A stretch of DNA of 64,000 bases from Clostridia bacterium. GTDB lineage: Bacteria; Bacillota; Clostridia; Oscillospirales; CAG-272. Position numbers and translations under genes: made by a program. The DNA lies in contig JAFVUB010000009.1 in assembly GCA_017502915.1 (NCBI GenBank), positions 6,232 through 70,231 on the forward strand. Reading direction: 5' to 3'. Positions 1 through 11,103 of this stretch are shown piece by piece (position 1 is the stretch's first letter; each line of letters opens with the position of its first letter). A model generated the notes under the pieces. That model ran no database searches and was not told the origin of the DNA. It saw only the letters and a list, made by a program, of their open reading frames with translations.

Positions 1-720
1 TTGGCTTCCGTAAGCATCATAGACGTCTGCCAATGTCTTGCCCGGGATAATGCACAGATAGCTTTTATAATCTTCGCTATTCGCGCTACTTGCTTCCAGA
101 CAAGGTATTCCTTTTCCATCTGTATATGCCTTAAAATCAATTTCTATATCCTGTCTACCTAAATCCGAAAAACATACGCGATAAATTCTATCTATATCCC
201 ATATCTGGCACTCCACAGGTATTCCATTGTAAGCTTTGGCATCTATTTCGCTTATTCTATTGCTCATGAAGCCATCGGTAAGTAATAGCAATCTGAATTT
301 ACGAATGCGATCTTTATGAAGAACAAGGGATTCGATCAAATCGGCTGCAGGAGTGCTTGGTTCGATCTCTCTCCGTAGCTTCCCCTCATAAACTTCTTCA
401 ACAAAATATAATACTCGGTCAAAAAGTGTTTGAGCATACGTTTTGGTTATTGTTTCTCGATCTTCGTCGCCAGTGTAATCTGCTATAATCAGATTGAATG
501 TTAGGTCAAATTCATCCAGTACGTAACCATCCACACGTATTTTCCTGCTGTTCTTACCAGTCCCTATATAGAACGCCGGGGTGAAATCTGACAACACTTC
601 GGCATTAATTAAATAGCTTGTTGCAATATTTACAAAAGCGGCATTTGAACCAGAGCCTTCTGTTGCTGCTGTTGCTTTTATTTCTTCCAAAAAATCTTTG
701 TGAAAATCACGTACGTCCAT
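1..720 (-). CDS. AIPR-family (abortive-infection phage-resistance) protein, N-terminal 240 codons; the ORF runs off the left edge
   Basis: Absent from the ORF track because there is no in-window stop. My reverse-complement translation from the ATG at 720-718 stays open for all 240 codons: MDVRDFHKDFLEEIKATAATEGSGSNAAFVNIATSYLINAEVLSDF...CQIWDIDRIYRVCFSDLGRQDIEIDFKAY...YKSYLCIIPGKTLADVYDAYGSQ. The IWDIxRIY, IEIDF and YLxIIPGxxLAxxYxxYG pattern matches what I remember of AIPR N-termini. The gene starts 9 nt after the upstream gene's stop. Confidence 0.6.
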   Translation of the reverse strand, partial: MDVRDFHKDFLEEIKATAATEGSGSNAAFVNIATSYLINAEVLSDFTPAFYIGTGKNSRKIRVDGYVLDEFDLTFNLIIADYTGDEDRETITKTYAQTLFDRVLYFVEEVYEGKLRREIEPSTPAADLIESLVLHKDRIRKFRLLLLTDGFMSNRISEIDAKAYNGIPVECQIWDIDRIYRVCFSDLGRQDIEIDFKAYTDGKGIPCLEASSANSEDYKSYLCIIPGKTLADVYDAYGSQ

Positions 721-729
721 TTTATCTCC

Positions 730-1656
730 TTAAATTTTAAAACGGTCAATCGTTAAAAGATCTAATTCGTATTTTGCGTTATGTACTTCGGGAGGAACAT
801 TACCTCTGGTCAACTTAGGGAATCCATCCTTTACACTGTACACTCTTTTTTCCGAAATCCTGTATCTCATTTCTTTATAGCGTTCACTATCCTTTAAATA
901 GTATCCACACATGGCTAATTTACAAAGGAATAAATCTGTTGCACCAATGGGTAACAGTTTTTTTACGTCGTCAACAACTTCCGGAAGAGATAGTGTTTGT
1001 ACTCCATTTGAAGTAGTCTTGTCCATAAAATAGACAACAAGATGACCGTTATCATTTCTGTCGAGTTGTTGTAACGAAGAAATTACAACAGTAGTTGAAG
1101 CTATTGTTGTCGCCTTAATTTCATTCCAGCTATTTTCGCAGATAAAATCCTGATCGCTACCCTCGGGGCCAACCCACGAATTTAAAGCCTTTATAGAACC
1201 TTCAGAAACCATCAATTCTTTAAGAAATAATAATTCTCCAATAAGTCCTTTTTGTGCCGAAGGTGAAAGCAATCCCTCACCTCTTTTTTGAAGCAAACGC
1301 ATCCAACTATTAAAGCGTGACAATATTGTTGCAATCGGATCCAGATTGTTTTGAGAACAATCTATTAAATCCCAACATAGCTTGACAAAAAGTTCATTTA
1401 ATGAAGGATAGTTTAACAAAAAACGAAGCGCGTATTTGCCGTTATCCATCTCCACGCAACTGGAATTTATTGCTTTAGAAGAAGCAGTTTTTTCCACCTT
1501 TCCGGTATCCAAAACCATGAAACACATTTGCTCGCCATAATATCCAATGTGAAAAGACAATGGATGATCTCCTGAAACTAGTAAGAATCCTCCGGTATTT
1601 GGCGATATACTATCCCATTTTCTCTGCAGTTCATTTATTGTCATATTCGTCATCAT
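730..1656 (-). CDS. PD-(D/E)XK motif nuclease-like protein
   Basis: 308 aa ORF. Candidate catalytic core is GPEGSDQDFICENSWNEIKATT (D ... E-x-K). It overlaps the upstream Z1 gene by 26 nt, suggesting translational coupling. Confidence 0.6.
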   Translation of the reverse strand: MMTNMTINELQRKWDSISPNTGGFLLVSGDHPLSFHIGYYGEQMCFMVLDTGKVEKTASSKAINSSCVEMDNGKYALRFLLNYPSLNELFVKLCWDLIDCSQNNLDPIATILSRFNSWMRLLQKRGEGLLSPSAQKGLIGELLFLKELMVSEGSIKALNSWVGPEGSDQDFICENSWNEIKATTIASTTVVISSLQQLDRNDNGHLVVYFMDKTTSNGVQTLSLPEVVDDVKKLLPIGATDLFLCKLAMCGYYLKDSERYKEMRYRISEKRVYSVKDGFPKLTRGNVPPEVHNAKYELDLLTIDRFKI

Positions 1657-4444
1657 CCTCGTCTGTGATGTCTACCCAGTTCTTTAATTCATTGACATTA
1701 ACCATATAATTTGCTTTTCTTTCAAGTCCGTCTTTCGGGAATCCCAGACCAAGCGCAAACAAGATATCGGGGTCCTCCGGCGTACGCGTACCTGTCGTAT
1801 TCTTAAGGATATGTATAAGTGCCAGTGGTCGACGATCTTTAATCAAGTACGTCCGATCGTTAATTTTTTCATTGTTTGCTTTGCTTTTTGCACGCAAATC
1901 ATCGATTGTATCTTTAGACAATCCAATTTTTGAGCAACCACCCGTACCAACTCGAACGTGATGTCCGTTGACTCGTATAAGATTTGTAATCGTCTTGTCC
2001 CACTCCAACTGTCTACCTTCCGGTTTTATAGACAAAACACGATCTATTAAATCAACATCTACTTCCGATTCCTCTGAGCCCTGTGGTATAGCGACATCCC
2101 AAAAATCAAGAACCTTTTCGTCTTCAGAAATATAATCCGCTAACGCAATTGGTTGGAAATTCAAGTTCCATGGATGCGTTGAGAATCCACGAACTAAATC
2201 TATAATTGCTTTTTTAGGTACACCTTTCCAAATATGAGCCTTTGTATTAACATCATACTCGTAATGTATACCCTCATCTGCCGAAAGACCTTGAATAAAT
2301 GAACGACACAAATCTTCGTTCTGCTTCAACGTTTGCTTATCACCTCTAAGACGAGGTGTTTCAAGCATACGTCCTGAAACAGTTATAGGTCGTGAAACGG
2401 AAGTTGCTGTACGCATCTTGTTTCTTGCAGTTATAAGAAGCGCACCGGGTGCCTGACGTACTTTTAATCCAAATTCCTCGGGTGTTTGGTTTTGGCGTTT
2501 CATTTTGCGCAATTCGTCTTTCAATTCGTTTACTGCATCGGTTATATATCCATACCAGTCAATTGCTTCCTCGCCCATCCAAACCTTGAACAAATCATCA
2601 TAATTAGGACGATATCCAAACCATCTGCCCATCTGCAAAAGAGTATCATACATCATCGTATTACGATAAAAATAGCTAACGCACAACCCTTCTAGAGTCA
2701 GACCTCTAGACAAACTATTTCCACCAACTGCAATAACACGCATACCAATGTTTTTATACTCGTAATAATTGAGAGAAGATGCTCCGTGTTGCTGGTTAAC
2801 TGAACGTACTTCTATACGCTTCGCTGCCTTGTACAAGTATTCTTCAAGAAGAACGTGCCATTCAACCCCTGCGAGATCTTCAAGTTCATATTTCTCCCAT
2901 ACTTCATGAAGCATAGAAATACTGGTTATTTTCATTGCTTTTTCCAGAGGCAAAGAAGAATAGTTTTCCAAGTCTGCTTTTATTTGATCTAAAAATTCAT
3001 CTATCAAATCAGCAGTTCTATTTTGAACTAATGTGAACCTGCTGACGTTTACCAACATAGATCTATGCTCAGTCGTATCTTTTCTATAATCGCAAATAGC
3101 TGTCGCAAGTACAAAATAGCGAATCGCTTCTTTCATGCTATATGGAATATCATATAATTCGTCGGCTAAATCTTTTTTATGTTTGAATACAAAGAAATCG
3201 TCCTGTTCGTCATTATAAATCGGTATTATCGCTTTGCCATAAACACCTTCGCATCGTGTGACGGCGTTTCCATTCTCCCAGTTATCGGCGTCGCCATTAC
3301 CAAAGATTTTATCTGCGCCAATGTATAACTCTGGTGTAGGCAATACCGTCAAAAAGTCTTTAGGGAACAGATTTTTGGTTGCTTCATCAGTTTCCGATTC
3401 CGGATTAATAAAAATATTAGCAAAAGGCGTTGCTGTAATACCTAAATATGAAGCCTGCCTAAAGCAATTCAATATATCCCTAATTGCTTTATTAATAGCT
3501 GTGGGATCTCTTTCTTCGGAATTGGTATTCACAGAAGCATTATCAGCCTCATCATCTATGAGCAGAAGAGGCAGATCTATTAGACCGTTTTCATAATCTG
3601 CGTTATTTTCCATTAACCATTTGTAGAGATTGTTAAGAACACTTTTGTTCTTTTTTACAACGAACAAAGCCGTTCCATTTAACGTCCTCAAACTAAGCCC
3701 TAACGCACGAAGCGTAGTCTTGTTGAAATCAGTTGCAACAGATGTAAAACACGCAATTCGTTTATCGGGATTGCTTGGAGGTATTTTGCCAACACCTACA
3801 GGTTTATTCTTTATCTCGTGATCCGCTTTCTTGTCGAGAGTATATTTACTCTCTACTCCCACAAACTCCGCATCCAGACGTTCTTGAGTCTGAACTCGAA
3901 GGTTTTCCATCATACCCGCAAGAACAATAATAACACGATATCCCGCATCCGAAGCTTTGTTACAAATAGCAGTATATGTTGCAGTTTTTCCCGACTGAAC
4001 ATCTCCAAGAAGCAAACCTCTTCGTTGGAACGGACGTTTGTGATCTTTGGGATTTCCCAAATCATCCATTACATCGCTCGATGTTTTATTCAAACGATTA
4101 ACAACATCAACGCCCCAATGTTTTACAACCTTAAGGTAGGTTTTGTATCTTTCCCAATAAAAACCATCATTCTCTTGAACGTGATACCAAGACTGATGCT
4201 CAACATCTCTGCCACGCAACGTAACAGCAAAACCAATAGTATGCAAAATGTTTGTGGCTAACGTTTTCTTAATCTGTACAAAATCATCATCGCTGACGGG
4301 ATACAATACATTGAAAGCTTTGCGTATAACCTCGGCTTCTTCATTAATTTGCTCCAACGTAGGTAAAGAATCCCCATATTTTCTATTAATTGTTGCAGTT
4401 ACCGTATCAACAATATAATGCATATTTTCAGTCATTGAATTCAC
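1631..4444 (-). CDS. Z1-domain protein (SF2 helicase/ATPase-like)
   Basis: 937 aa. Motifs seen: Walker A GDVQSGKT, Walker B LLIDDEADNAS, motif III GITATP and a motif VI-like LQMGRWFGYR. This architecture is typical of Z1-domain proteins. It overlaps the upstream GHKL gene by 17 nt. Confidence 0.75.
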   Translation of the reverse strand: MNSMTENMHYIVDTVTATINRKYGDSLPTLEQINEEAEVIRKAFNVLYPVSDDDFVQIKKTLATNILHTIGFAVTLRGRDVEHQSWYHVQENDGFYWERYKTYLKVVKHWGVDVVNRLNKTSSDVMDDLGNPKDHKRPFQRRGLLLGDVQSGKTATYTAICNKASDAGYRVIIVLAGMMENLRVQTQERLDAEFVGVESKYTLDKKADHEIKNKPVGVGKIPPSNPDKRIACFTSVATDFNKTTLRALGLSLRTLNGTALFVVKKNKSVLNNLYKWLMENNADYENGLIDLPLLLIDDEADNASVNTNSEERDPTAINKAIRDILNCFRQASYLGITATPFANIFINPESETDEATKNLFPKDFLTVLPTPELYIGADKIFGNGDADNWENGNAVTRCEGVYGKAIIPIYNDEQDDFFVFKHKKDLADELYDIPYSMKEAIRYFVLATAICDYRKDTTEHRSMLVNVSRFTLVQNRTADLIDEFLDQIKADLENYSSLPLEKAMKITSISMLHEVWEKYELEDLAGVEWHVLLEEYLYKAAKRIEVRSVNQQHGASSLNYYEYKNIGMRVIAVGGNSLSRGLTLEGLCVSYFYRNTMMYDTLLQMGRWFGYRPNYDDLFKVWMGEEAIDWYGYITDAVNELKDELRKMKRQNQTPEEFGLKVRQAPGALLITARNKMRTATSVSRPITVSGRMLETPRLRGDKQTLKQNEDLCRSFIQGLSADEGIHYEYDVNTKAHIWKGVPKKAIIDLVRGFSTHPWNLNFQPIALADYISEDEKVLDFWDVAIPQGSEESEVDVDLIDRVLSIKPEGRQLEWDKTITNLIRVNGHHVRVGTGGCSKIGLSKDTIDDLRAKSKANNEKINDRTYLIKDRRPLALIHILKNTTGTRTPEDPDILFALGLGFPKDGLERKANYMVNVNELKNWVDITDEDDDEYDNK

Positions 4445-5894
4445 CCTTTTCTTTCGCGTGGTCTATTTCTTCACTATACGCACAGAATGGCTCAGCTAGT
4501 TTTAGCGCTTCTATAGTAGAGTAGCGCTCTTCAATGCTCGCCTGTTGCATCACTATAGTTTTTACAAGTTCAATTATTTCTTTTGAAGCCATATCACTAT
4601 CATTTGCCAGTTTTTCGTCATTAGTTAAATCAATATAAAGAGAGTTCAAAGGCAAAGACATGCTTATCTGCTTCAAGAGAACATCAAGTTTCGAACGTAT
4701 ACCTGGATATTCTTGAACAATATCTTCTATCATAGGATAATCCGGATTGATTTCATAAAAAATACCACCGTCACGAGAAACCATTCTGTTCCACATATGA
4801 ATAACGTCATCTCTCGTTTCTTTTTTTCCGCGGTATGTCCAAGTCCGTTTGCTACCTTCAGAAATTTTTTCAATGATTACACCTAGATTTTGCTTTACAT
4901 CCTCTGGAGGTGTTGCTGTTGATTTTTTAATATCTAGCGTCCATAAATCATCAAGCGAGTTAGGTATATCAACTTGCACTCGAGCTAATTTCGACAAATC
5001 TCCCTGGCGCATCAAACGAAACCATGTGCCCCAAACCAGAAGTCGCTTATTTCTATACACATAAAACCCTTGTTGCTTCCTTAATCCTTCTTTTCCACCC
5101 AGATCCTTAAGTTCTTTTTGAGTCAACTTAGAAACATGTGGCAAAATATAAGGCTTAACTTTTACCTTTGCACCTCTAACAACAATTGTTTCTTCATCCA
5201 TAAGTTGCGTGCTTTTTTTAATCAAAAACGGATCTTGTGGAACGATGCTCATATCATTCATACGAATATCCAACTTTTTTAACCCAGTTTCACCGCTTAA
5301 ATAACGATGAAACACCAAGGAAAGATGTTCTCGTATCAAAGACATTTTCCTTGTGAAAGCTTCAGCTATATCATTTTCTCCAACCGCGAATTTATCCAAC
5401 TCTTGCCAAATAACCAACGTTCCATTTTCTAAAGACGTTAATTTGGAATAACTAGGGTAACTATTGAAATCCGAATTTTCAAGAATGATAAGAGACCACG
5501 ACTCTGCATGCTTCACGTGATCCAGATTCCATTGAGCACCCGAAACTCGACCGTTTTGCTTCGTAATCACGGTTAAAACTCTACATTGAGACAAAGATGC
5601 AGTCTTCATTCCAAGTCCGTATCTACCCAAATCATCTTCATCTCTTTCATCCAATGGATCTCTGCTGCCATACTGCATGGCGGCTATAAGTTTTTCTTCA
5701 GTCATGCCATGTCCATCGTCAAGTATCGATATATAAGACTCGCCTATCGGAAAGAAATCAATATCTACTCGTCCTGCTTTTGCAGCTACACTATTATCAA
5801 CAATATCAGCAATCGCAGCTTCTATGGAGTAGCCAATAGCACGAGTGGATTCCATAAGAGTCGGCGCATACGGGGGCATATCTTGGCATCTCAT
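4428..5894 (-). CDS. GHKL-superfamily ATPase (HATPase_c_3, MutL/MORC-like)
   Basis: 488 aa. Bergerat-fold motifs: IADIVDNSVAA (N box), LDDGHGM (DxGxG) and GRYGLGMKTAS (G2 box). An AAGGAGA RBS sits 7 nt upstream of the ATG at 5894. Confidence 0.75.
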   Translation of the reverse strand: MRCQDMPPYAPTLMESTRAIGYSIEAAIADIVDNSVAAKAGRVDIDFFPIGESYISILDDGHGMTEEKLIAAMQYGSRDPLDERDEDDLGRYGLGMKTASLSQCRVLTVITKQNGRVSGAQWNLDHVKHAESWSLIILENSDFNSYPSYSKLTSLENGTLVIWQELDKFAVGENDIAEAFTRKMSLIREHLSLVFHRYLSGETGLKKLDIRMNDMSIVPQDPFLIKKSTQLMDEETIVVRGAKVKVKPYILPHVSKLTQKELKDLGGKEGLRKQQGFYVYRNKRLLVWGTWFRLMRQGDLSKLARVQVDIPNSLDDLWTLDIKKSTATPPEDVKQNLGVIIEKISEGSKRTWTYRGKKETRDDVIHMWNRMVSRDGGIFYEINPDYPMIEDIVQEYPGIRSKLDVLLKQISMSLPLNSLYIDLTNDEKLANDSDMASKEIIELVKTIVMQQASIEERYSTIEALKLAEPFCAYSEEIDHAKEKGEFND

Positions 5895-5916
5895 ATATTT
5901 TCTCCTTAACTATAAA

Positions 5917-6129
5917 TCAGTATTTGTTAGGAACAATCTCTACAATGTCATCCATCGTACATTCAAGTGCAGTGCATATTTTCACGAGCACATCACTCGA
6001 TATAGTCGCACCATCTTTCTTCATCTTAGCGATGGTCGCAGGACTAACACCCGCCTTGGCAGCAAGTTCCTTGCTCTTCATTTCGCGATCAATAAGCAAT
6101 TTAAAAAGTTTCTTATAGCTGGCAGCCAT
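5917..6129 (-). CDS. XRE/Cro-C1-type helix-turn-helix transcriptional regulator
   Basis: 70 aa. The sequence MKSKELAAKAGVSPATIAKMKKDGATISSDVLVKICTALECTMDDIVE is a typical HTH_3-like pattern. Its stop is 22 nt upstream of the GHKL ATG on the same strand. Confidence 0.8.
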   Translation of the reverse strand: MAASYKKLFKLLIDREMKSKELAAKAGVSPATIAKMKKDGATISSDVLVKICTALECTMDDIVEIVPNKY

Positions 6130-6168
6130 ATTTCACCTCATAAAAATAAAAGTTTTTATACATATACT

Positions 6169-6197
6169 ATTTTACTACTTTAATCGACAAATTGCAA
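6169..6197 (-). promoter_or_regulatory. Putative sigma-A promoter of the xre-GHKL-Z1-PD(D/E)XK-AIPR operon
   Basis: On the minus strand I read TTGCAA (6197-6192), a 17 nt spacer and TAAAAT (6174-6169), about 40 nt upstream of the xre ATG. Confidence 0.45.
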
Positions 6198-6325
6198 GAG
6201 TTTTTGCAGAACAAATTACACGATCGCTAAATTTCTTATACTTGCGTAAATTGTGGCGTTCCTATCAATGATATAGGAACTAATATATCCGTTCCGATGG
6301 AAATGATTGAAGCAAAAACCTCTCT

Positions 6326-6363
6326 TCTTTGTTTAGTGCTGATCAAATTTTTCTCCATTAGGC
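6326..6363 (+). repeat. Imperfect direct repeat, copy A (tctttgtttagtgctgatcaaatttttctccattaggc)
   Basis: Hand alignment to 8037-8073. The first 17 nt are identical. Overall there are about 4 substitutions and 1 indel. Confidence 0.7.
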
Positions 6364-6555
6364 AGGGGCGTTGCTTTTGTATTTCGAGACTGATATTTGT
6401 GTTATGTGTAATGGCAGTATCGGCTTCATTTTAAATTGGTAATTTATATGTTCCTTTTTCTACTTTCATTTGTTATTGATAACCCAAATTAACATAAGTG
6501 TATTTTAAATGTCGAAATTTGTTTGAAAAGTGTATCATTTTTATAATAATAACTA

Positions 6556-6584
6556 TTGAAAAGTGTAAAAATATGTGTTATAAT
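6556..6584 (+). promoter_or_regulatory. Near-consensus extended -10 sigma-A promoter for the AAA+ ATPase gene
   Basis: TTGAAA (6556-6561), a 17 nt spacer, TG at 6576-6577 and TATAAT (6579-6584). A GGAGGAG RBS precedes the ATG at 6619. Confidence 0.6.
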
Positions 6585-6618
6585 ATTATTGAAAACTGTA
6601 TTATTGGAGGAGAAATCT

Positions 6619-7971
6619 ATGCTTTTTAGAAAAATCGAAAGGTTCATCAGAGAATATTTGACTTCAGACAGCAACAAAATCTTAGTGATTGACGGTGCAC
6701 GCCAGATTGGTAAATCATATATCATCCGCGAAGTTGGAAAAGATCTTTACAAAGAAAACTACATTGAAATAAACTTCGTCGAAGATAAGCAGGGGCCTCA
6801 GCTTTTTAAAAACATAAACACTATTGAAGATTTTTACTTCACGCTTAGCACTATCGCTGGCGAAAAAATGAAAGGCAAAGAAAACACCTTAGTATTTATC
6901 GATGAGATTCAAGTATATCCTCAGTTTATCACTCTGCTGAAATTTTTAAAACAAGATAATAAATATACGTATATTGCATCTGGTTCTCTCTTGGGAGTTA
7001 CTCTCTCCAACATAGGATCTATTCCTATTGGATCAATGGAAATCAAGAGAATGTATCAGCTTGATTTCGAAGAGTTTTTGATTGCCAACGGATTTTCACA
7101 AGAAGCAATCAAAATTCTTGAAAACAAATTTTTAGCAAGAGAAACTCTTGACGAAGCAATGCACGACAAGTTGCTGGATTTGTTTAAGAAATATTTAATT
7201 GTCGGCGGACTTCCTGATGCCGTAAATGAATTTTTAAAAACAAGAAACGTTGTTGCTATACGCAAAATCCAAGAAGACATAAAAACATTTTATGGAGAGG
7301 ATGCGTCTCAATACGATATTGAGAACAAATTAAAAATCAAGCGTATATACGATTATATTCCATCGGTTATGCAGAACACCAAAAAACGCATCGTGGCAAA
7401 AGATATAGAAGGCATCGTCGGAAAACGCTTTGCGAACTATGTTAATGAATTTGACTACTTGATTTCTTCCGGGATAGCACTCGAGGTTAAAGCTATTTCC
7501 AATCCCGTTTTTCCTTTAATTCAATCAGCAGATAAAAACCTTCTCAAACTTTATATGAACGACGTAGGTTTGCTCTCCGGTATTTTGTATAACAATAACG
7601 CAAAACCGATTCTTGAAGACGTGCGATCAGTTAACCTTGGCGCTCTTTACGAAACAGCAGTGGCAGGCCAGCTTAAAGCTCTCGACCATAAACTCTTTTA
7701 TTACGATAACAGAAATAATGGTGAAGTTGATTTTATGATTGACGATTACGATAATCTTGCGGTTCTTCCCGTAGAAGTAAAAAGCGGAAGAGATTACACC
7801 ACTCACAGTGCGCTGAATCATTTTATCACCAATGATAACTATCCCGTTAAAGCCGGATATGTTTTATCAAATGAAAGAGAAATTAAAACCGTAGGCAAAA
7901 TCACGTACTTCCCTATATATTTCGTAATGTTTCTTAAACCAATATCAAGCGCTGATGAGGTCTTGATATAA
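6619..7971 (+). CDS. AAA+ ATPase with a DUF4143-type C-terminal domain (COG1373-like)
   Basis: Trimmed from track ORF 6556..7971 to the ATG with an RBS (MLFRKIERFIREYL...). Motifs: Walker A GARQIGKS, Walker B LVFIDEIQ, and C-terminal GEVDFMI...PVEVKSG, a PD-(D/E)XK-like D...E-x-K typical of DUF4143. Confidence 0.7.
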   Translation: MLFRKIERFIREYLTSDSNKILVIDGARQIGKSYIIREVGKDLYKENYIEINFVEDKQGPQLFKNINTIEDFYFTLSTIAGEKMKGKENTLVFIDEIQVYPQFITLLKFLKQDNKYTYIASGSLLGVTLSNIGSIPIGSMEIKRMYQLDFEEFLIANGFSQEAIKILENKFLARETLDEAMHDKLLDLFKKYLIVGGLPDAVNEFLKTRNVVAIRKIQEDIKTFYGEDASQYDIENKLKIKRIYDYIPSVMQNTKKRIVAKDIEGIVGKRFANYVNEFDYLISSGIALEVKAISNPVFPLIQSADKNLLKLYMNDVGLLSGILYNNNAKPILEDVRSVNLGALYETAVAGQLKALDHKLFYYDNRNNGEVDFMIDDYDNLAVLPVEVKSGRDYTTHSALNHFITNDNYPVKAGYVLSNEREIKTVGKITYFPIYFVMFLKPISSADEVLI

Positions 7972-8000
7972 AATCATATTTTATGCCTTGAAAAAAAGAA

Positions 8001-8040
8001 AAGCCGATGAAGATTGCTTTGTTCTTCATCGGCTTTTCTT
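8001..8040 (+). terminator. Rho-independent terminator of the AAA+ ATPase gene
   Basis: A 12 bp stem, aagccgatgaag (8001-8012) paired with cttcatcggctt (8024-8035), followed by a T-rich tail. Confidence 0.7.
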
Positions 8041-8073
8041 TGTTTAGTGCTGACCAATTTTTTACCATTAGAC
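8037..8073 (+). repeat. Imperfect direct repeat, copy B (tctttgtttagtgctgaccaattttttaccattagac)
   Basis: Matches copy A at 6326-6363. It lies immediately 3' of the ATPase terminator. Confidence 0.7.
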
Positions 8074-8389
8074 GCCTTTTAAACTATAGTTTTTCTTCTT
8101 CCAAAGGCTATATGTTTTTCGAAAGAAAGCAGAAAAACACCTTTGCAAAACCGCTCTAAATGTTTACATAAAGGAACACATCTTTTGCCTGTAATAATGT
8201 TGTTTTTTCTCAAAACAACTAATCTACATTTTTCCTCTATACCTCTATTTTTGACACCAACGAATTCCGGAACATACGGAAACAACGGAAAATTTACTAC
8301 AAAACAGCACATTTTACTGGAAAATATGGAAAATTTGCAACGCAAAGTTTACAAAATACGCTTATCGGTCCGTTGGGGTGGTAGAGGCC

Positions 8390-8417
8390 GCAAGTTCAAG
8401 TCTTGTCACTCAGACCA
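8390..8417 (+). other. tRNA 3' fragment (T-arm, acceptor 3' strand and CCA); putative island attachment-site remnant
   Basis: gcaag-TTCAAGT-cttgt forms a canonical T-arm, with a G before the loop, a TTCRANY loop and a C after it. It is followed by the 7 nt cactcag, a, then CCA. No complementary 5' acceptor strand (ctgagtg) or anticodon arm lies upstream, so this is not an intact tRNA. Confidence 0.45.
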
Positions 8418-8456
8418 AAAAAGCATTGGAAACACTACGTTTTCCAATGCTTTTTT
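8417..8456 (+). terminator. A-tract / 12 bp stem / T-tract hairpin (terminator-like); repeat family copy 1
   Basis: aagcattggaaa (8421-8432) pairs with tttccaatgctt (8441-8452), flanked by A and T runs. It is nearly identical to 19245-19285. Confidence 0.65.
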
Positions 8457-8832
8457 CTTATCCTGTTACGCAGTTTTTCGCCGACTGCTACACAATTTGC
8501 TACGCAGCTGAAGGTCAGCTGCCGACATATTCAAAATTCGTAGCGCACCGCAAGACCGAACGAACGACCTTCTATGTAGCGCAGCCCTGACGTCAGGGCT
8601 CTACTTTTGGTACTGCTTCGGGGAGTGCTACACAAGCCCCCTAAAATTGTTAACTTTTTGTTAGTAAATCATATAAGTTAAAATCGCAGAACTCATTTCT
8701 GAATTCTGCGATTTTTTGATCCCTATAAAACCCTATAAAAAATGATATCAGTTTTTGTTGATTTGCCAAAAGGAACTCGTTACCAAACTTTTTAAGTGTC
8801 CTTTAAGCTCACTTACGAAATTGTATGACAAA

Positions 8833-8904: not shown

Positions 8905-11103
8905 TTACGGCAGCGTCACCTTGAATATGCGATCGGTCGGAGCAATTTCCTTACCGTCATGGAAGCACAAAGCACCCGATTCGTACAAAACGTAGAGTGC
9001 GCCGTCGTATACCGAAAGTCCCTGCGACATCGACATAGTAACGTAGCTCTCACCTTCAGCTTTAGAGTCGAGGAACCAAACGGGAACGCTCTTTCCGTTG
9101 AGAGTAACGGTGGTGTGCGCGGGCTCCTTGGTAACGTTATCGTAAACAATAAGCGTTGAGTTCACCTTATTTCCATACGAACGGCTAAGCACTATTTTAT
9201 CACCGATAACCGTAAAACCCTGGAACTTTTGATCTATCGAGAGTACTATATCCGGAGTTGCATACTGCATTCCGTCAACATACGCATCTTTGGCAAGTCC
9301 GCTCTCGGTTTCGTCGGTTATTATGTAGCCTACACACCAAGCTCCGTACTTTTTACCGTCACGGTTTGTCATATGGCGCCAGGTGGGGGTTGCATATTCG
9401 CTGTCGTTCGGAATATAAAAATCGCCAACCCACAGTATTCCGTCGGAATAGTTACAGAAGGACGCACGCGTCGGTACAGGAATTTCTTCCACAATTTTAA
9501 TCGTTGCCTGAAGTCCGTCTTCTTCAAAGGCAGATAACGGTATTCTGAAAAGCTTCTCCTCGGACGCTATAAACACGTTATCCTCGGTTACGGCAACACC
9601 GCCGGCATGGCTTGTGTGCTTTGAGCCGTCAACGTTTAAGATGCGATATTCGCCTACCTTTTTCCCGGTTTTTACATTAACCGTCAAAATCACAGACGTA
9701 TCGGAATAGGTATAATCCTTAAAATATCCGGAGATAAAGATAAGCTCTTTTTCTTCAGAAATATCCATTCCCTGAGGAATGAAGCCTTGCTTAAGACCGG
9801 GAACTACGGCGTCGGGCGTTGCGATGGCATTGAATTTGCTGTACGCAGGCTTCGTATATTTGTTGGTCGAAACGGTTCTATCCTGCGAGAAGACAAAGTC
9901 GTAGGCATATTTCGCTTCTTCATCATCGGGATCGATAGCCATTTCATTAGGAAGAACCTCGAAATGAACCGTTCCGTCAAGTCGGGTTGCATCCGCAAAC
10001 TCAAAAACGTCTTCCTCGGGATTTTCTACCTTTTCAACGTCGATAACGAATTCGTCACCTGCGGTTACAAAAACGTCTGCCACAGAGAAATAGGTCTCAG
10101 TTCCGGGCTTCGATCTCTTGTCGCCGATCACATAGGGGAACACGTATCTGTCTGCTGCTACATCACCCGTATAAACGATTTCTCCGTTTTTAACCTTTGC
10201 GGTATAAAGAAGATTTGGGTCGCTGTTGTCGGCGTCGTATATAACCTTGTACGAGGAAAGCTTAACTCCGTCAACGTAAAGAGTTGCAATAACGTCGTGC
10301 TTTACACTTCCGCTTACGATACGAGAGGTCTGATGAAGCTGAATTCCGATTCTGTGCCAACCGTAGTCGCCTATCATCGGGTAATCGTCCTCGGTCGCCG
10401 TGACCTTAAGTCCGTCGGGAATAGAAGGACCGTATATTATCTGCGTGTTGTTATCCGACTCAAATCCGCCGGCATACTGACACCACATCTTAGAGCCAAT
10501 ATCATCTACAAGAAGCAGATGATACGGGGTTTTTCTTGTGCCGCTGGTATTGCCACTGCTATCGCAGAGCATACCGAAATAAAGATAGTACGCGCCTGCC
10601 GAGTTGTTATTATTCGCAAGAGTTTCGTTCCAAAGGAAGGAAAGCTCTACGAAAAGGTCGTTGCCGTCCGGATCGTCTGCTGTGGGATAAAAATGCTTAT
10701 CTCCGAGAACGTCGGTCTTAATGTTAACCTTTTCAGTATGCTTGTTTGAAGCGTTTTCGTCAAAAATTGCGCTCTGGGGAACGGTTTCACTAAGAACTAC
10801 GCTTATTTCCTCGTGACAGCTGTCGCATTCGCCCGTCTTTGTGCCCTTGCTGAACGCCGTAGGACGAACTATTGTATCAAACGTTACACTTTCGTGATAA
10901 CAAGCTCCGGGCGTTTCGGGTGTTTCCGGCGTTTCGGGAGAGGCGGACGTTTCCGAGTCTTCCGATGTTTCCGATGTTTCCGGGGCTTCCGATGCTTCCG
11001 GCGCTTTTGGCGTTTCCTGTTTGTTACATCCAACCACCGCAAGCATCACCGACAGTGTCAACAGAGCTACCATAAATGCACATAAAATTCTTTTAATCTT
11101 CAT
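8905..11103 (-). CDS. Lipoprotein of unknown function with an acidic S/T/E/P-rich linker
   Basis: Trimmed to the ATG at 11103, preceded by an AGGAGA RBS. The N-terminus MKIKRILCAFMVALLTLSVMLAVVGC is a signal peptide with a lipobox. The linker reads PEASEAPETSETSEDSETSASPETPETPETP. I do not recognise a family for the large C-terminal part. Confidence 0.6.
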   Translation of the reverse strand: MKIKRILCAFMVALLTLSVMLAVVGCNKQETPKAPEASEAPETSETSEDSETSASPETPETPETPGACYHESVTFDTIVRPTAFSKGTKTGECDSCHEEISVVLSETVPQSAIFDENASNKHTEKVNIKTDVLGDKHFYPTADDPDGNDLFVELSFLWNETLANNNNSAGAYYLYFGMLCDSSGNTSGTRKTPYHLLLVDDIGSKMWCQYAGGFESDNNTQIIYGPSIPDGLKVTATEDDYPMIGDYGWHRIGIQLHQTSRIVSGSVKHDVIATLYVDGVKLSSYKVIYDADNSDPNLLYTAKVKNGEIVYTGDVAADRYVFPYVIGDKRSKPGTETYFSVADVFVTAGDEFVIDVEKVENPEEDVFEFADATRLDGTVHFEVLPNEMAIDPDDEEAKYAYDFVFSQDRTVSTNKYTKPAYSKFNAIATPDAVVPGLKQGFIPQGMDISEEKELIFISGYFKDYTYSDTSVILTVNVKTGKKVGEYRILNVDGSKHTSHAGGVAVTEDNVFIASEEKLFRIPLSAFEEDGLQATIKIVEEIPVPTRASFCNYSDGILWVGDFYIPNDSEYATPTWRHMTNRDGKKYGAWCVGYIITDETESGLAKDAYVDGMQYATPDIVLSIDQKFQGFTVIGDKIVLSRSYGNKVNSTLIVYDNVTKEPAHTTVTLNGKSVPVWFLDSKAEGESYVTMSMSQGLSVYDGALYVLYESGALCFHDGKEIAPTDRIFKVTLP

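What the first reader, a model, noticed from the sequence alone, without database searches (positions are those of the whole stretch)
6326..8073. AAA+/DUF4143 ATPase gene is bracketed by a 37-38 nt imperfect direct repeat, like an inserted cassette
Copy A is tctttgtttagtgctgatcaaatttttctccattaggc (6326-6363). Copy B is tctttgtttagtgctgaccaattttttaccattagac (8037-8073). They are in the same orientation, share the first 17 nt exactly, and differ overall by about 4 substitutions and 1 indel. Between them lie only a strong promoter, the single ATPase ORF and its terminator.

COG1373-type AAA+/DUF4143 proteins (ATPase plus a PD-(D/E)XK-like C-domain) are reported as enriched in defence islands, but their function is unknown. 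The repeat could be a duplicated target or att site from insertion of a one-gene module. It could also be the repeated end of a small mobile cassette.
Basis: partly seen in the sequence, partly recalled or inferred. Interest (0 to 1): 0.55.

Follow-up and report, generated by a model that had tools for sequence, protein, structure and literature searches.

The report
Repeat pair predates inserted ATPase gene
The two 37-nt repeats around this candidate anti-phage ATPase gene are real, but they are older fixtures of a mobile defence island: sister islands without the gene keep both copies, so the gene landed between them and did not create them.

Summary
The repeat is real: 6326-6363 and 8037-8073, with a 17-nt exact core and only two matches in 64 kb against 0.11 expected. 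It is not an insertion scar.

The ATPase (6619-7971) has AAA_14 and DUF4143 domains and matches PADLOC candidate PDC-S01. It lies about 400 nt inside the right end of a defence island. That island carries an XRE-headed Mza-like/Dcm operon and ends at a 45-nt tRNA-Pro(GGG) 3' fragment (8373-8417).

Sister islands with 96-98% identical operons (L019, L024) lack the ATPase but keep both boxes. So do islands with a different XRE-Dcm-SNF2 operon (L157-L166). In all of them the boxes lie about 140 nt apart, separated by small terminator hairpins. Box B is the T-tract and tail of a conserved terminator.

ATPase homologues elsewhere share only about 130 nt of promoter plus the ORF. Four loci have no box and two have a single box upstream.

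The ATPase is therefore cargo inserted between pre-existing boxes. These boxes belong to a small, undescribed family of 30-40-nt sequences found at module junctions in these islands. Their function is unresolved. Interest is modest.

The parts
6326..6363 (+). Box A, the A-class copy of the box family. It has no hairpin to its left.
   Evidence: Flank homology shows it is the positional orthologue of box A' in ATPase-less islands.
8037..8073 (+). Box B, the B-class copy. It forms the T-tract and tail that follow terminator hairpin hp2.
   Evidence: It is the positional orthologue of box B'.
7991..8045 (.). hp2, a bidirectional intrinsic terminator. The stem is 8003-8013 / 8023-8033, with an A-tract before it and a T-tract after it. 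It belongs to the island backbone, not to the ATPase unit.
   Evidence: I3. One search gives -35.8 kcal/mol, z = -8. The homologous hairpin in L019, L024 and L157 carries compensatory stem changes, GAAGA/TCTTC versus GAGG/CCTC.
6619..7971 (+). ATPase gene of 450 aa with AAA_14 and DUF4143 domains (a PD-(D/E)xK-like C-terminal domain). It matches PADLOC candidate single-gene defence system PDC-S01.
   Evidence: Pfam; PDC-S01, E = 3.7e-172; sequence with GARQIGKS, VFIDEIQ and EVDF...VEVK.
6493..6618 (+). Conserved promoter and leader of the ATPase unit. Four phased (TTG)AAAAGTGTA motifs lie at 6493-6502, 6523-6534, 6556-6567 and 6589-6600. The main promoter is TTGAAA-17-TGnTATAAT at 6556-6584. 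An RBS follows.
   Evidence: (D6), and alignments A2 and A4. Nucleotide homology to six homologue loci starts at 6492-6523.
6364..6487 (+). Segment of unknown origin between box A and the ATPase unit. It holds a weak stem-loop at about 6386-6427, possibly the counterpart of terminator hp1 in sister islands.
   Evidence: z = -0.45, not significant. No significant similarity to the L157 spacer or to the L186/L187 upstream regions.
5917..6129 (-). XRE/Cro-C1 HTH gene of 70 aa. It is the first gene of the minus-strand defence operon and looks like a controller (C-protein-like) gene.
   Evidence: The identical protein heads ATPase-less islands. Homologues at 97-99% identity head a different Dcm-SNF2-DUF4062 operon.
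730..5894 (-). Mza-like operon. HATPase_c_3 (MzaB-like) is at 4428-5894, the Z1 helicase (MzaC-like) at 1631-4444 and DUF4420 at 730-1644. The operon continues beyond the window start into AIPR, Dcm, an SLFN-type helicase, NUDIX and HNH genes.
8074..8372 (+). att-proximal arm between box B and the tRNA fragment. It contains short direct repeats (8278-8300 / 8319-8341). It is not homologous to the arm of L019-type islands.
   Evidence: D8; the alignment score is within the shuffle range.
8373..8417 (+). The 3' 45 nt of tRNA-Pro(GGG), from the anticodon loop to CCA. It is an att remnant that marks the right end of the island.
   Evidence: An intact tRNA-Pro with the same 3' half is at L039 23-98. 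ARAGORN and Rfam find no whole gene here. The DNA to its right differs among the window, L011, L019, L024 and L157-L165.
8417..8456 (.). Terminator hairpin immediately after the tRNA fragment.
   Evidence: I10.

Best explanation
**Setting.** The two 37-nt copies are pre-existing 'boxes' in the conserved non-coding right end of a family of defence islands. These islands end at a tRNA-Pro(GGG) 3' fragment.

The usual layout, left to right on the + strand of the window, is:

- the XRE gene and its promoter;
- box A;
- a small terminator, hp1;
- terminator hp2, with box B as its T-tract and tail;
- an arm of about 300 nt;
- the tRNA-Pro fragment.

**The event.** In this lineage, about 1.5 kb was inserted between box A (with hp1) and hp2. 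The insert is a promoter with four phased motifs plus the AAA_14-DUF4143 (PDC-S01) ORF. Homology to other copies of the gene ends at the stop codon, so hp2 now serves as the gene's terminator.

**Shown.**
- Both boxes persist in islands without the ATPase.
- The ATPase unit has no terminal repeats in four of six other loci and a single upstream box in the other two.
- The island ends at a tRNA fragment.

**Inferred.**
- The insertion occurred by illegitimate or short-homology recombination in a terminator-flanked, hypervariable slot, not by a site-specific event that duplicates a target.
- The boxes are kept because they have a sequence-specific role, either as terminator tails or as protein-binding sites.
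- The unusually high A/B similarity in this strain reflects local homogenisation (short-patch gene conversion).
For: 1. **ATPase-less sister islands keep both boxes.**
   - L019 and L025 are 96.4% identical to window 917-6362. L024 is 98.1% identical to 917-6247. Both lack the ATPase.
   - They still have box A', a spacer of about 70 nt, hp2 and box B'.
   - A box profile finds exactly two copies in every island locus.
2. **The module is older than the cargo.**
   - The same ~700-nt right-end module is found next to a different operon, XRE-Dcm-SNF2-DUF4062, at 83-90% identity (L157-L166).
   - In an alignment of 7 of these modules, A' is invariant over 35 nt and hp2 3' arm + B' over 34 nt.
3. 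**Positional orthology.**
   - The window's backbone from 6121 to about 6372 aligns continuously with L019.
   - hp2 is homologous and carries compensatory stem changes.
4. **The ATPase unit is separable from the boxes.**
   - Homologues at 77-83% aa identity sit in unrelated contexts, for example beside a pyr operon, a sigF operon or ksgA.
   - Nucleotide homology to the window spans only 6492/6523 to 7971/7976.
   - No bracketing repeats are present.
5. **Island boundary.** The tRNA-Pro 3' half at 8373-8417 marks it, and the DNA to its right varies. In L011 that DNA includes a tyrosine integrase.
6. **Strain-specific extent.** In L011, which has the ATPase, box B is only 22/28 identical to A in the core and has no A-like tail.
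Against: - Window boxes A and B are both 'type I', at 26/28 identity to each other. They are 25/28 identical to the C-class copies that lie beside OLD-like and reverse-transcriptase genes in L157 and L159. A' and B' are only 19-23/28 identical to every copy outside their own class. Simple vertical descent of two independent boxes does not predict this.
- The two closest ATPase homologues outside this species (L186, L187) carry a box exactly at the left edge of their shared unit. Some link between the boxes and the ATPase unit therefore remains.
- No ATPase-free version of the window-type (type I) module was found. The 'empty' state is known only from the diverged L019-type module.
- The junctions are placed only to about ±20 nt on the right. 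On the left the range is about 6364-6490.
- The function of the boxes is not established.
Confidence: 0.7

Rival explanations
1. **First reader's model.** Insertion of a one-gene ATPase module created the repeat, either as a target-site duplication or as attL/attR. Alternatively, the repeats are the two ends of a small mobile ATPase cassette.
For: - The repeats are direct and bracket a single gene with its own promoter.
- The gene is absent from sister islands.
- L186 and L187 have a box at the left edge of the ATPase unit.
Against: - ATPase-less islands have two boxes, not one.
- Box B is separated from the ORF by backbone terminator hp2, which is also present in the empty islands.
- Homology among ATPase units ends at the stop codon and about 130 nt upstream of the start. 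Boxes A and B lie outside that span.
- Four homologue loci have no box, and L186 and L187 have none downstream.
- No transposase or recombinase lies in the module, and it has no terminal inverted repeats.
- 37 nt at 87% identity is unlike a target-site duplication.
Confidence: 0.05
2. **Recombination-signal model.** The boxes are recombination signals or anchors of a module-shuffling system. Each defence module would start with a box and often end with a hairpin. New cargo, including the ATPase unit, would be joined at box edges. This could happen through an unidentified site-specific recombinase or through short-homology crossovers between boxes. The result would be arrays of modules separated by boxes.
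For: - The left edge of every box (the start of the T-tract, after ...CC) is where homology between variant loci breaks. This is seen in L019 vs L024 and L186 vs L187. It is also seen among the B and C classes, which follow different hairpins.
- The ATPase insert begins close to the right edge of box A.
- C-class boxes lie next to other defence cargo, an OLD-like ATPase and a reverse transcriptase.
- Type I boxes are nearly identical across different genomes and positions.
- The boxes are invariant while their flanks are hypervariable.
Against: - There are only four positional classes and about six independent junctions.
- No recombinase is associated with the boxes.
- The boxes lack the inverted-repeat core typical of tyrosine or serine recombinase sites.
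- The hairpins are perfect terminator-like stems, not attC-like.
- A stretch of 30-35 nt is marginal for RecA-dependent exchange.
- In the window the right junction of the insert is at hp2, not at a box.
- Boxes are absent from most PDC-S01 loci, from viral contigs and from all but this locus in the GTDB and JGI scans.
Confidence: 0.15
3. **Functional-site model.** The boxes are purely functional cis-elements: terminator tails or insulators, or binding sites for a regulator, integrase or excisionase of the island. Their similarity would then reflect a common recognition sequence, not common history with any cargo. This is compatible with the best explanation and differs only in emphasis.
For: - A' is invariant over 35 nt and hp2 3' arm + B' over 34 nt across 7 diverged modules.
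- B-class, C-class and some post-tRNA tails follow hairpins and begin with a T-tract.
- A promoter-like site follows B' (TTGCTT-17-TACAAT) and B (8061-8090).
Against: - The identical XRE protein occurs with both type I boxes and A'/B' boxes, so there is no co-variation.
- No XRE gene lies near the D-class boxes.
- The distance from box to promoter is not conserved.
- A-class and D-class boxes have no hairpin.
- The motif TTTTCTTTGTWTWTAG is not a general feature of terminators in the window.
Confidence: 0.1

Closest known systems
tRNA-linked genomic (defence) islands with variable cargo slots
   Same: - The island ends at a 3' tRNA fragment.
- The DNA beyond the fragment differs between strains and can hold an integrase element.
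- The cargo consists of defence genes: Mza-like/Dcm, PDC-S01, and OLD-like or reverse-transcriptase genes in relatives.
- Gene-sized presence/absence differences occur between near-identical islands.
   Different: - The island's own integrase and the intact tRNA-Pro at the other end were not found in 14 kb further left.
- The conserved ~700-nt non-coding end module, with two boxes and two terminators, is not a described feature.
PADLOC candidate single-gene defence system PDC-S01 (COG1373-type AAA_14 + DUF4143 ATPase)
   Same: - Full-length match to the PDC-S01 HMM (E = 3.7e-172).
- Pfam AAA_14 and DUF4143 domains.
- Walker A and B motifs and a D...ExK motif are present.
- It lies in a defence island.
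   Different: Anti-phage activity of PDC-S01 is unvalidated according to PMC12988326. Nothing here tests it.
Integron gene cassettes and attC sites (including integrase-less CALIN arrays)
   Same: - Single-gene units separated by hairpin-containing sites.
- A conserved sequence at the 3' base of the hairpin.
- Homology breaks at a fixed point next to the hairpin.
   Different: - No IntI integrase is present.
- The hairpins are perfect terminator stems without the R''/L''-L'/R' architecture or extrahelical bases.
- The conserved tail is 30-40 nt, not 7 nt.
- The cargo has its own strong promoter.
- Two of the four box classes have no hairpin.
attL/attR direct repeats of site-specific integrative elements and target-site duplications of transposons
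   Same: Direct repeats bracket an inserted gene.
   Different: - The empty sites carry two copies.
- The repeats do not abut the limits of the conserved unit.
- No recombinase or transposase is in the unit, and it has no terminal inverted repeats.
Controller (C-protein) regulated restriction-modification operons
   Same: A 70-aa XRE/HTH gene is the first gene of a methyltransferase-linked restriction-like operon. The same regulator, at 97-100% identity, heads two different Dcm-linked operons.
   Different: Binding of this regulator to the boxes is not supported. The operators are more likely the ACAAATTGCAAG / ACAAATTACAAG repeats nearer the gene. That is inferred only from reading the sequence.

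Membership tests
Target-site duplication of a transposable element | Short (2-15 bp), identical direct repeats immediately abutting the element termini. | tested here: not met
   The repeats are 37-38 nt at about 87% identity. Box B is separated from the ORF by backbone terminator hp2.
Target-site duplication of a transposable element | Terminal inverted repeats and a transposase within the element. | tested here: not met
   No inverted repeats lie at the limits of the unit. The only ORF is the ATPase.
Site-specific integrative cassette (attL/attR) | The empty site in relatives carries a single att copy. | tested here: not met
   ATPase-less islands L019, L024 and L157-L166 carry both boxes about 140 nt apart.
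Site-specific integrative cassette (attL/attR) | The same repeats flank the cassette wherever it occurs. | tested here: not met
   L013, L015, L016 and L188 have no box. L186 and L187 have one upstream box only.
Site-specific integrative cassette (attL/attR) | A cognate recombinase and a detectable excised form. | not testable with these tools
   No recombinase gene lies in or next to the module. Excision products need PCR or long-read data.
Integron cassette / attC | An attC with R''/L''...L'/R' sites (RYYYAAC ... GTTRRRY) forming an imperfect hairpin, together with an IntI integrase or an array of such sites. | tested here: not met
   The hairpins are perfect terminator stems. The box ends ATTAGGC / ATTAGAC lack the essential G. 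No integrase is seen in the window ORFs that were inspected.
PADLOC PDC-S01 | Full-length match to a PDC-S01 HMM. | tested here: met
   PDLC04792: E = 3.7e-172, residues 1-444 matched to profile positions 1-438 of 452.
PADLOC PDC-S01 | ATPase domain fused to a PD-(D/E)xK-superfamily domain. | tested here: met
   Pfam AAA_14 covers residues 19-154 and DUF4143 covers 228-390. The motifs are visible in the sequence. The architecture is described in PMC12988326.
PADLOC PDC-S01 | Protection against phage. | not testable with these tools
   The literature says validation is pending.
tRNA-associated genomic island | A partial tRNA copy (3' end) at one boundary, beyond which the sequence differs between strains. 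| tested here: met
   8373-8417 equals the 3' 45 nt of tRNA-Pro(GGG). Divergence starts right after ...CCAAAAA in L011, L019, L024 and L157-L165.
tRNA-associated genomic island | An intact tRNA and an integrase at the other boundary. | tested here: inconclusive
   Neither was found within about 14 kb to the left of the window (L181). A tyrosine integrase lies to the right of the fragment in L011/L021, but it belongs to a neighbouring element.
Mza defence system (PADLOC) | MzaB (HATPase_c_3) and MzaC (Z1 helicase), with AIPR and DUF4420 partners and a cytosine methyltransferase. | tested here: met
   MzaB E = 2.5e-80 and MzaC E = 9.7e-119. DUF4420, AIPR and DNA_methylase neighbours are present.

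The most novel reading that the evidence does not exclude
The 30-40-nt boxes would be the junction signal of a previously undescribed way of assembling defence islands in gut Clostridia. Their approximate consensus is CC|TTTTCTTTGTTTAGTGCTGACCAAATTTT. Gene-sized defence modules (PDC-S01, OLD-like, reverse transcriptase and others) would be joined at the left edge of a box, often just after a terminator stem. An unidentified recombinase or box-to-box exchange would do the joining. On this reading the pair around the ATPase is one visible instance of a cassette-like shuffling system without an integron integrase.
Probability: 0.12. Interest if true: 0.65.

Novelty: new member of a known kind. 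Interest (0 to 1): 0.3.

Why it matters
As flagged, the finding would have given a one-gene mobile defence cassette with recognisable ends. That would have been a direct handle on how COG1373/PDC-S01 genes, among the commonest predicted defence genes, spread. The evidence shows something more ordinary: a cargo gene dropped into a hypervariable, terminator-flanked slot at the tRNA-proximal end of a mobile defence island, between repeats that were already there.

Three things remain useful:

1. A clean natural presence/absence pair for a PDC-S01 gene in otherwise 96-98% identical islands.
2. A conserved promoter with four phased motifs that travels with this ATPase subfamily.
3. A small family of conserved boxes at module junctions. 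This could be followed up as a possible recombination or regulatory signal.

Tried and rejected
- **Dispersed repeat.**
  - The 21-nt pattern found only this same locus in the GTDB genomes (L011) and the JGI metagenomes (L012).
  - The 18-mer and the A' and B' patterns gave only chance hits or none in viral contigs.
  - A looser hairpin-plus-T-tract pattern gave 115 unrelated hits.
  - Conclusion: not a common dispersed element.
- **Known RNA.** Rfam gave nothing at gathering thresholds. At permissive E-values it gave only terminator-like noise. ARAGORN found no tRNA or tmRNA gene.
- **Phage or plasmid relatives.** No phage match. One distant plasmid match covered the ATPase ORF only.
- **Coding stub.** A minus-strand frame (..QNL[VI]STKQR[RK]..) looked conserved between the two C-class copies. 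The A versus A' differences are not biased towards third codon positions, start codons are not conserved, and box B is frameshifted. Rejected.
- **Conserved RNA hairpin within the box.** A and B can each fold (GUUUAGUG / CAUUAGRC). A', B' and the C copies do not share that pairing. Rejected.
- **dif/Xer-like or attC-like site.** No matching arm symmetry or core sites. Rejected on reading the sequence.
- **XRE operator.** The identical XRE occurs with different box types, and no XRE lies near the D-class boxes. Not supported.
- **Homology of window 6364-6487.** No significant similarity to the hp1 spacer of sister islands or to the box region of L186/L187.
- **Homology of the window arm (8074-8372).** No significant similarity to the L019-type arm, or to the sequence beyond the tRNA fragment in L159.
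- **Left end of the island.** Walking 14 kb to the left found more operon genes (SLFN-type helicase, NUDIX, HNH, radical SAM, dNK-like, def). It found no tRNA-Pro and no integrase.
Full report
**Observation**

Copy A (6326-6363) and copy B (8037-8073) lie in the same orientation. They share TCTTTGTTTAGTGCTGA exactly and differ by 4-5 substitutions and one indel overall. The similarity starts four bases further left, at 6322/8033.

Allowing three mismatches, the 17-mer occurs only at these two places in 64 kb. Shuffles give 0.11 expected. A flank-against-flank BLAST gives E = 1.2e-6. This is homology, not chance.

Between the copies lie:
- 124 nt of unassigned sequence;
- a strong promoter, TTGAAA-17-TGnTATAAT at 6556-6584;
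- a 450-aa ORF (6619-7971) with Pfam AAA_14 and DUF4143 domains;
- a very stable hairpin, at -35.8 kcal/mol and z = -8.

Copy B begins in the T-tract of that hairpin.

**Context**

To the left, on the minus strand, are:
- a 70-aa XRE/HTH gene;
- a HATPase_c_3 protein that matches PADLOC MzaB;
- a Z1 helicase that matches MzaC;
- DUF4420.

Beyond the window start the operon continues with AIPR, a Dcm methyltransferase, an SLFN-type helicase, NUDIX and HNH genes. This is a Dcm-linked, Mza-like defence operon.

The ATPase itself is a full-length match to PADLOC candidate PDC-S01 (E = 3.7e-172). According to PMC12988326, PDC-S01 is among the most common predicted defence genes. [quoted passage not shown]

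About 300 nt to the right of copy B, positions 8373-8417 are the 3' 45 nt of tRNA-Pro(GGG). An intact copy with the same 3' half is in viral contig L039. ARAGORN and Rfam find no whole gene in the window.

Immediately after ...CCAAAAA the sequence differs between strains:
- In the 98.7%-identical GTDB MAG (Eubacteriales SGB_7833, L011/L021) a tyrosine integrase follows.
- L019, L024 and L157-L165 each have other DNA there.

The ATPase therefore sits about 400 nt inside the right end of a mobile defence island that is bounded by a tRNA fragment.

**The decisive comparison**

The identical XRE protein occurs on contigs whose Mza-like operon is 96-98% identical to the window but which lack the ATPase. 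L019 and L025 have nothing in its place. L024 has an unrelated 229-aa minus-strand gene further left.

These 'empty' islands do not have one repeat copy. They have both:
- box A' (CTTTTATTTGCTTACTGCGTATCAAATTTTGCACCTTG);
- a spacer of about 70 nt;
- the same terminator hairpin, with compensatory stem changes (GAGG/CCTC against GAAGA/TCTTC in the window);
- box B' (TTTTCTTTGTATATAGCGGTGCAAATT...).

The window's XRE-upstream backbone aligns continuously with L019 through box A, to about 6372. The hairpin plus the first ~28 nt of box B also align. The arm between box B and the tRNA fragment does not.

XRE homologues at 97-99% identity head a different operon, XRE-Dcm-SNF2-DUF4062. Those loci carry the same ~700-nt end module at 83-90% identity (L157-L166). 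In an alignment of seven such modules:
- box A' is invariant over 35 nt, next to a hypervariable left flank;
- the hp2 3' arm plus B' is invariant over 34 nt;
- a small terminator (hp1), whose stems differ between variants, lies between the boxes.

A profile of the boxes finds exactly two copies in every island locus. The two copies are therefore backbone features that exist whether or not the ATPase is present.

**The ATPase unit**

Homologues at 77-83% amino-acid identity sit as solitary genes in unrelated neighbourhoods. Examples are an ABC transporter beside a pyr operon, a sigF operon, ksgA, DUF4435/AAA_15, and an acyltransferase beside GrpB.

Nucleotide homology to the window covers only 6492/6523 to 7971/7976. 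That is about 100-130 nt of promoter and leader plus the ORF, ending at the stop codon. Each locus has its own terminator.

The conserved upstream part carries four (TTG)AAAAGTGTA motifs with a 32-33-nt period. One of them is the -35 element of the main promoter.

None of these loci is bracketed by repeats. The window's terminator and box B therefore belong to the island, and the inserted unit is roughly 6.45-7.98 kb.

The left junction lies somewhere between 6364 and 6490. The intervening 124 nt match nothing I could find. The right junction lies within about 15 nt of the stop codon.

**A complication that keeps the story from being closed**

The boxes are a small family. I distinguish four classes by position:
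- A class: no hairpin to the left (window box A and the A' copies).
- B class: follows hairpin hp2 (window box B and the B' copies).
- C class: follows other hairpins, outside the island end module.
- D class: at the left edge of an ATPase unit, with no hairpin.

C-class copies occur beside an OLD-like ATPase gene in L157 and beside a reverse-transcriptase cluster in L159/L161. Each follows a different hairpin.

D-class copies occur in the two closest ATPase homologues outside this species, L186 and L187. They carry one box exactly at the left edge of their shared unit, about 40 nt upstream of the first promoter motif. That box is significantly similar to A, B and B'.

In a 28-nt core:
- window A, window B and the two C-class copies are 25-26/28 identical to each other ('type I');
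- A' and B' are 19-23/28 identical to every copy outside their own class, including each other.

In every comparison the left edge of the box, where the T-tract starts after ...CC, is where homology between variant loci breaks.

They are absent from viral contigs. In the GTDB and JGI scans they appear only at this locus.

In L011, which has the ATPase, box B lacks the A-like 3' half. Eight mismatches cluster at 8046-8069, inside a stretch (7994-8320) that diverges tenfold more than the rest. This suggests a short-patch homogenisation in the window lineage.

**Interpretation**

The best-supported reading (confidence about 0.7) is that the ATPase promoter-plus-ORF unit was inserted into a hypervariable, terminator-flanked slot. 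That slot lies between two pre-existing boxes in the island's conserved right-end module, and the gene uses the backbone terminator.

The mechanism of insertion is inferred, not shown. I take it to be illegitimate or short-homology recombination.

I give it about 0.05.

A more interesting rival is that the boxes are junction signals for shuffling defence modules. The coincidence of breakpoints with box edges, and the type I copies beside other cargo, favour it. It rests on few junctions, has no recombinase, and does not explain why the right junction here is at hp2. I give it about 0.15.

A purely cis-regulatory role for the boxes, as terminator tails or binding sites, is compatible with the main reading. 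I could not support a link to the XRE protein.

**Novelty and score**

The gene is a known candidate defence gene. The setting is a known kind of tRNA-linked defence island with variable cargo. The repeat is not what makes the gene mobile. The box family and the conserved end module are undescribed but of uncertain meaning.

Interest is 0.3, and the case is a new member of a known kind.

Noticed in passing
window 8373-8417 (and L011 5832 onward, L019, L024, L157-L165): A 45-nt 3' fragment of tRNA-Pro(GGG) marks the island's right end. The DNA beyond it differs between strains. In the 98.7%-identical MAG (L011/L021) it is a tyrosine-integrase element. This looks like a tandem-integration hot spot.
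   Followed up: partly
window 6493-6600: Four phased (TTG)AAAAGTGTA motifs with a 32-33-nt period lie upstream of the ATPase. They are conserved in homologue loci at 70-77% nucleotide identity over the ATPase unit. One motif is the -35 element of the main promoter. They could be an autoregulatory operator array for this PDC-S01 subfamily.
   Followed up: partly
L019/L157-type loci, between box B' and the tRNA fragment (e.g. L157 3800-4140, minus strand): The ~330-nt arm is conserved at over 90% across 7 island variants. It has a promoter-like TTGCTT-17-TACAAT right after box B' and a direct repeat AACGACCACA x2. An 18-bp perfect palindrome, TGTAAACAATTGTTTACA, abuts the tRNA fragment. The arm may encode an RNA or hold recombinase sites. 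The window's arm (8074-8372) is unrelated in sequence.
   Followed up: no
window 1-5894 and L181 5516-20915: A long co-directional operon runs XRE, MzaB-like, MzaC-like, DUF4420, AIPR, Dcm, SLFN-type helicase, NUDIX, HNH, TipAS, radical SAM, dNK-like, then peptide deformylase. The same XRE, at 97-99% identity, heads a different Dcm-SNF2-DUF4062 operon in L157-L171.
   Followed up: partly
L030 7690-7984; L006 11769 onward (same sample, ERZ28018841): L030 has the 5' half of tRNA-Pro, then about 240 nt of unrelated sequence, then CACTCAGACCA. After that come the same terminator and 732-aa gene as in the window. L006 leaves the window sequence at 8387, inside the tRNA fragment, and runs into an NhaC-like gene. 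These are either assembly breaks at the repeated tRNA sequence or a real rearrangement.
   Followed up: no
L019 4240-4300 (minus strand): The tRNA-Pro fragment in L019 carries a 40-nt hairpin-forming insert between the T-stem and the acceptor strand.
   Followed up: no
L188 about 190-520 (also L189-L193): A run of about 8 short hairpins, each followed by (A/C)ATATCGAG/T, lies upstream of a 79%-identical ATPase homologue. Some of these contigs come from the same samples as the window strain.
   Followed up: no
window 10904-10998: Eight register-shifted copies of a 9-nt tandem repeat (GTTTCCGGN) lie inside the 732/749-aa minus-strand ORF, which has no Pfam or PADLOC match.
   Followed up: no
window 8470-8640: Repeated GTTACGCAG / GCTACGCAG / TGCTACACAA motifs lie just to the right of the tRNA fragment. 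They are shared with L157 and may be arm-type or attB-flank sites.
   Followed up: no
L024 844-1533: A 229-aa gene with no Pfam or PADLOC match occupies a second variable slot, between the XRE promoter and box A', in an otherwise 98%-identical island.
   Followed up: partly
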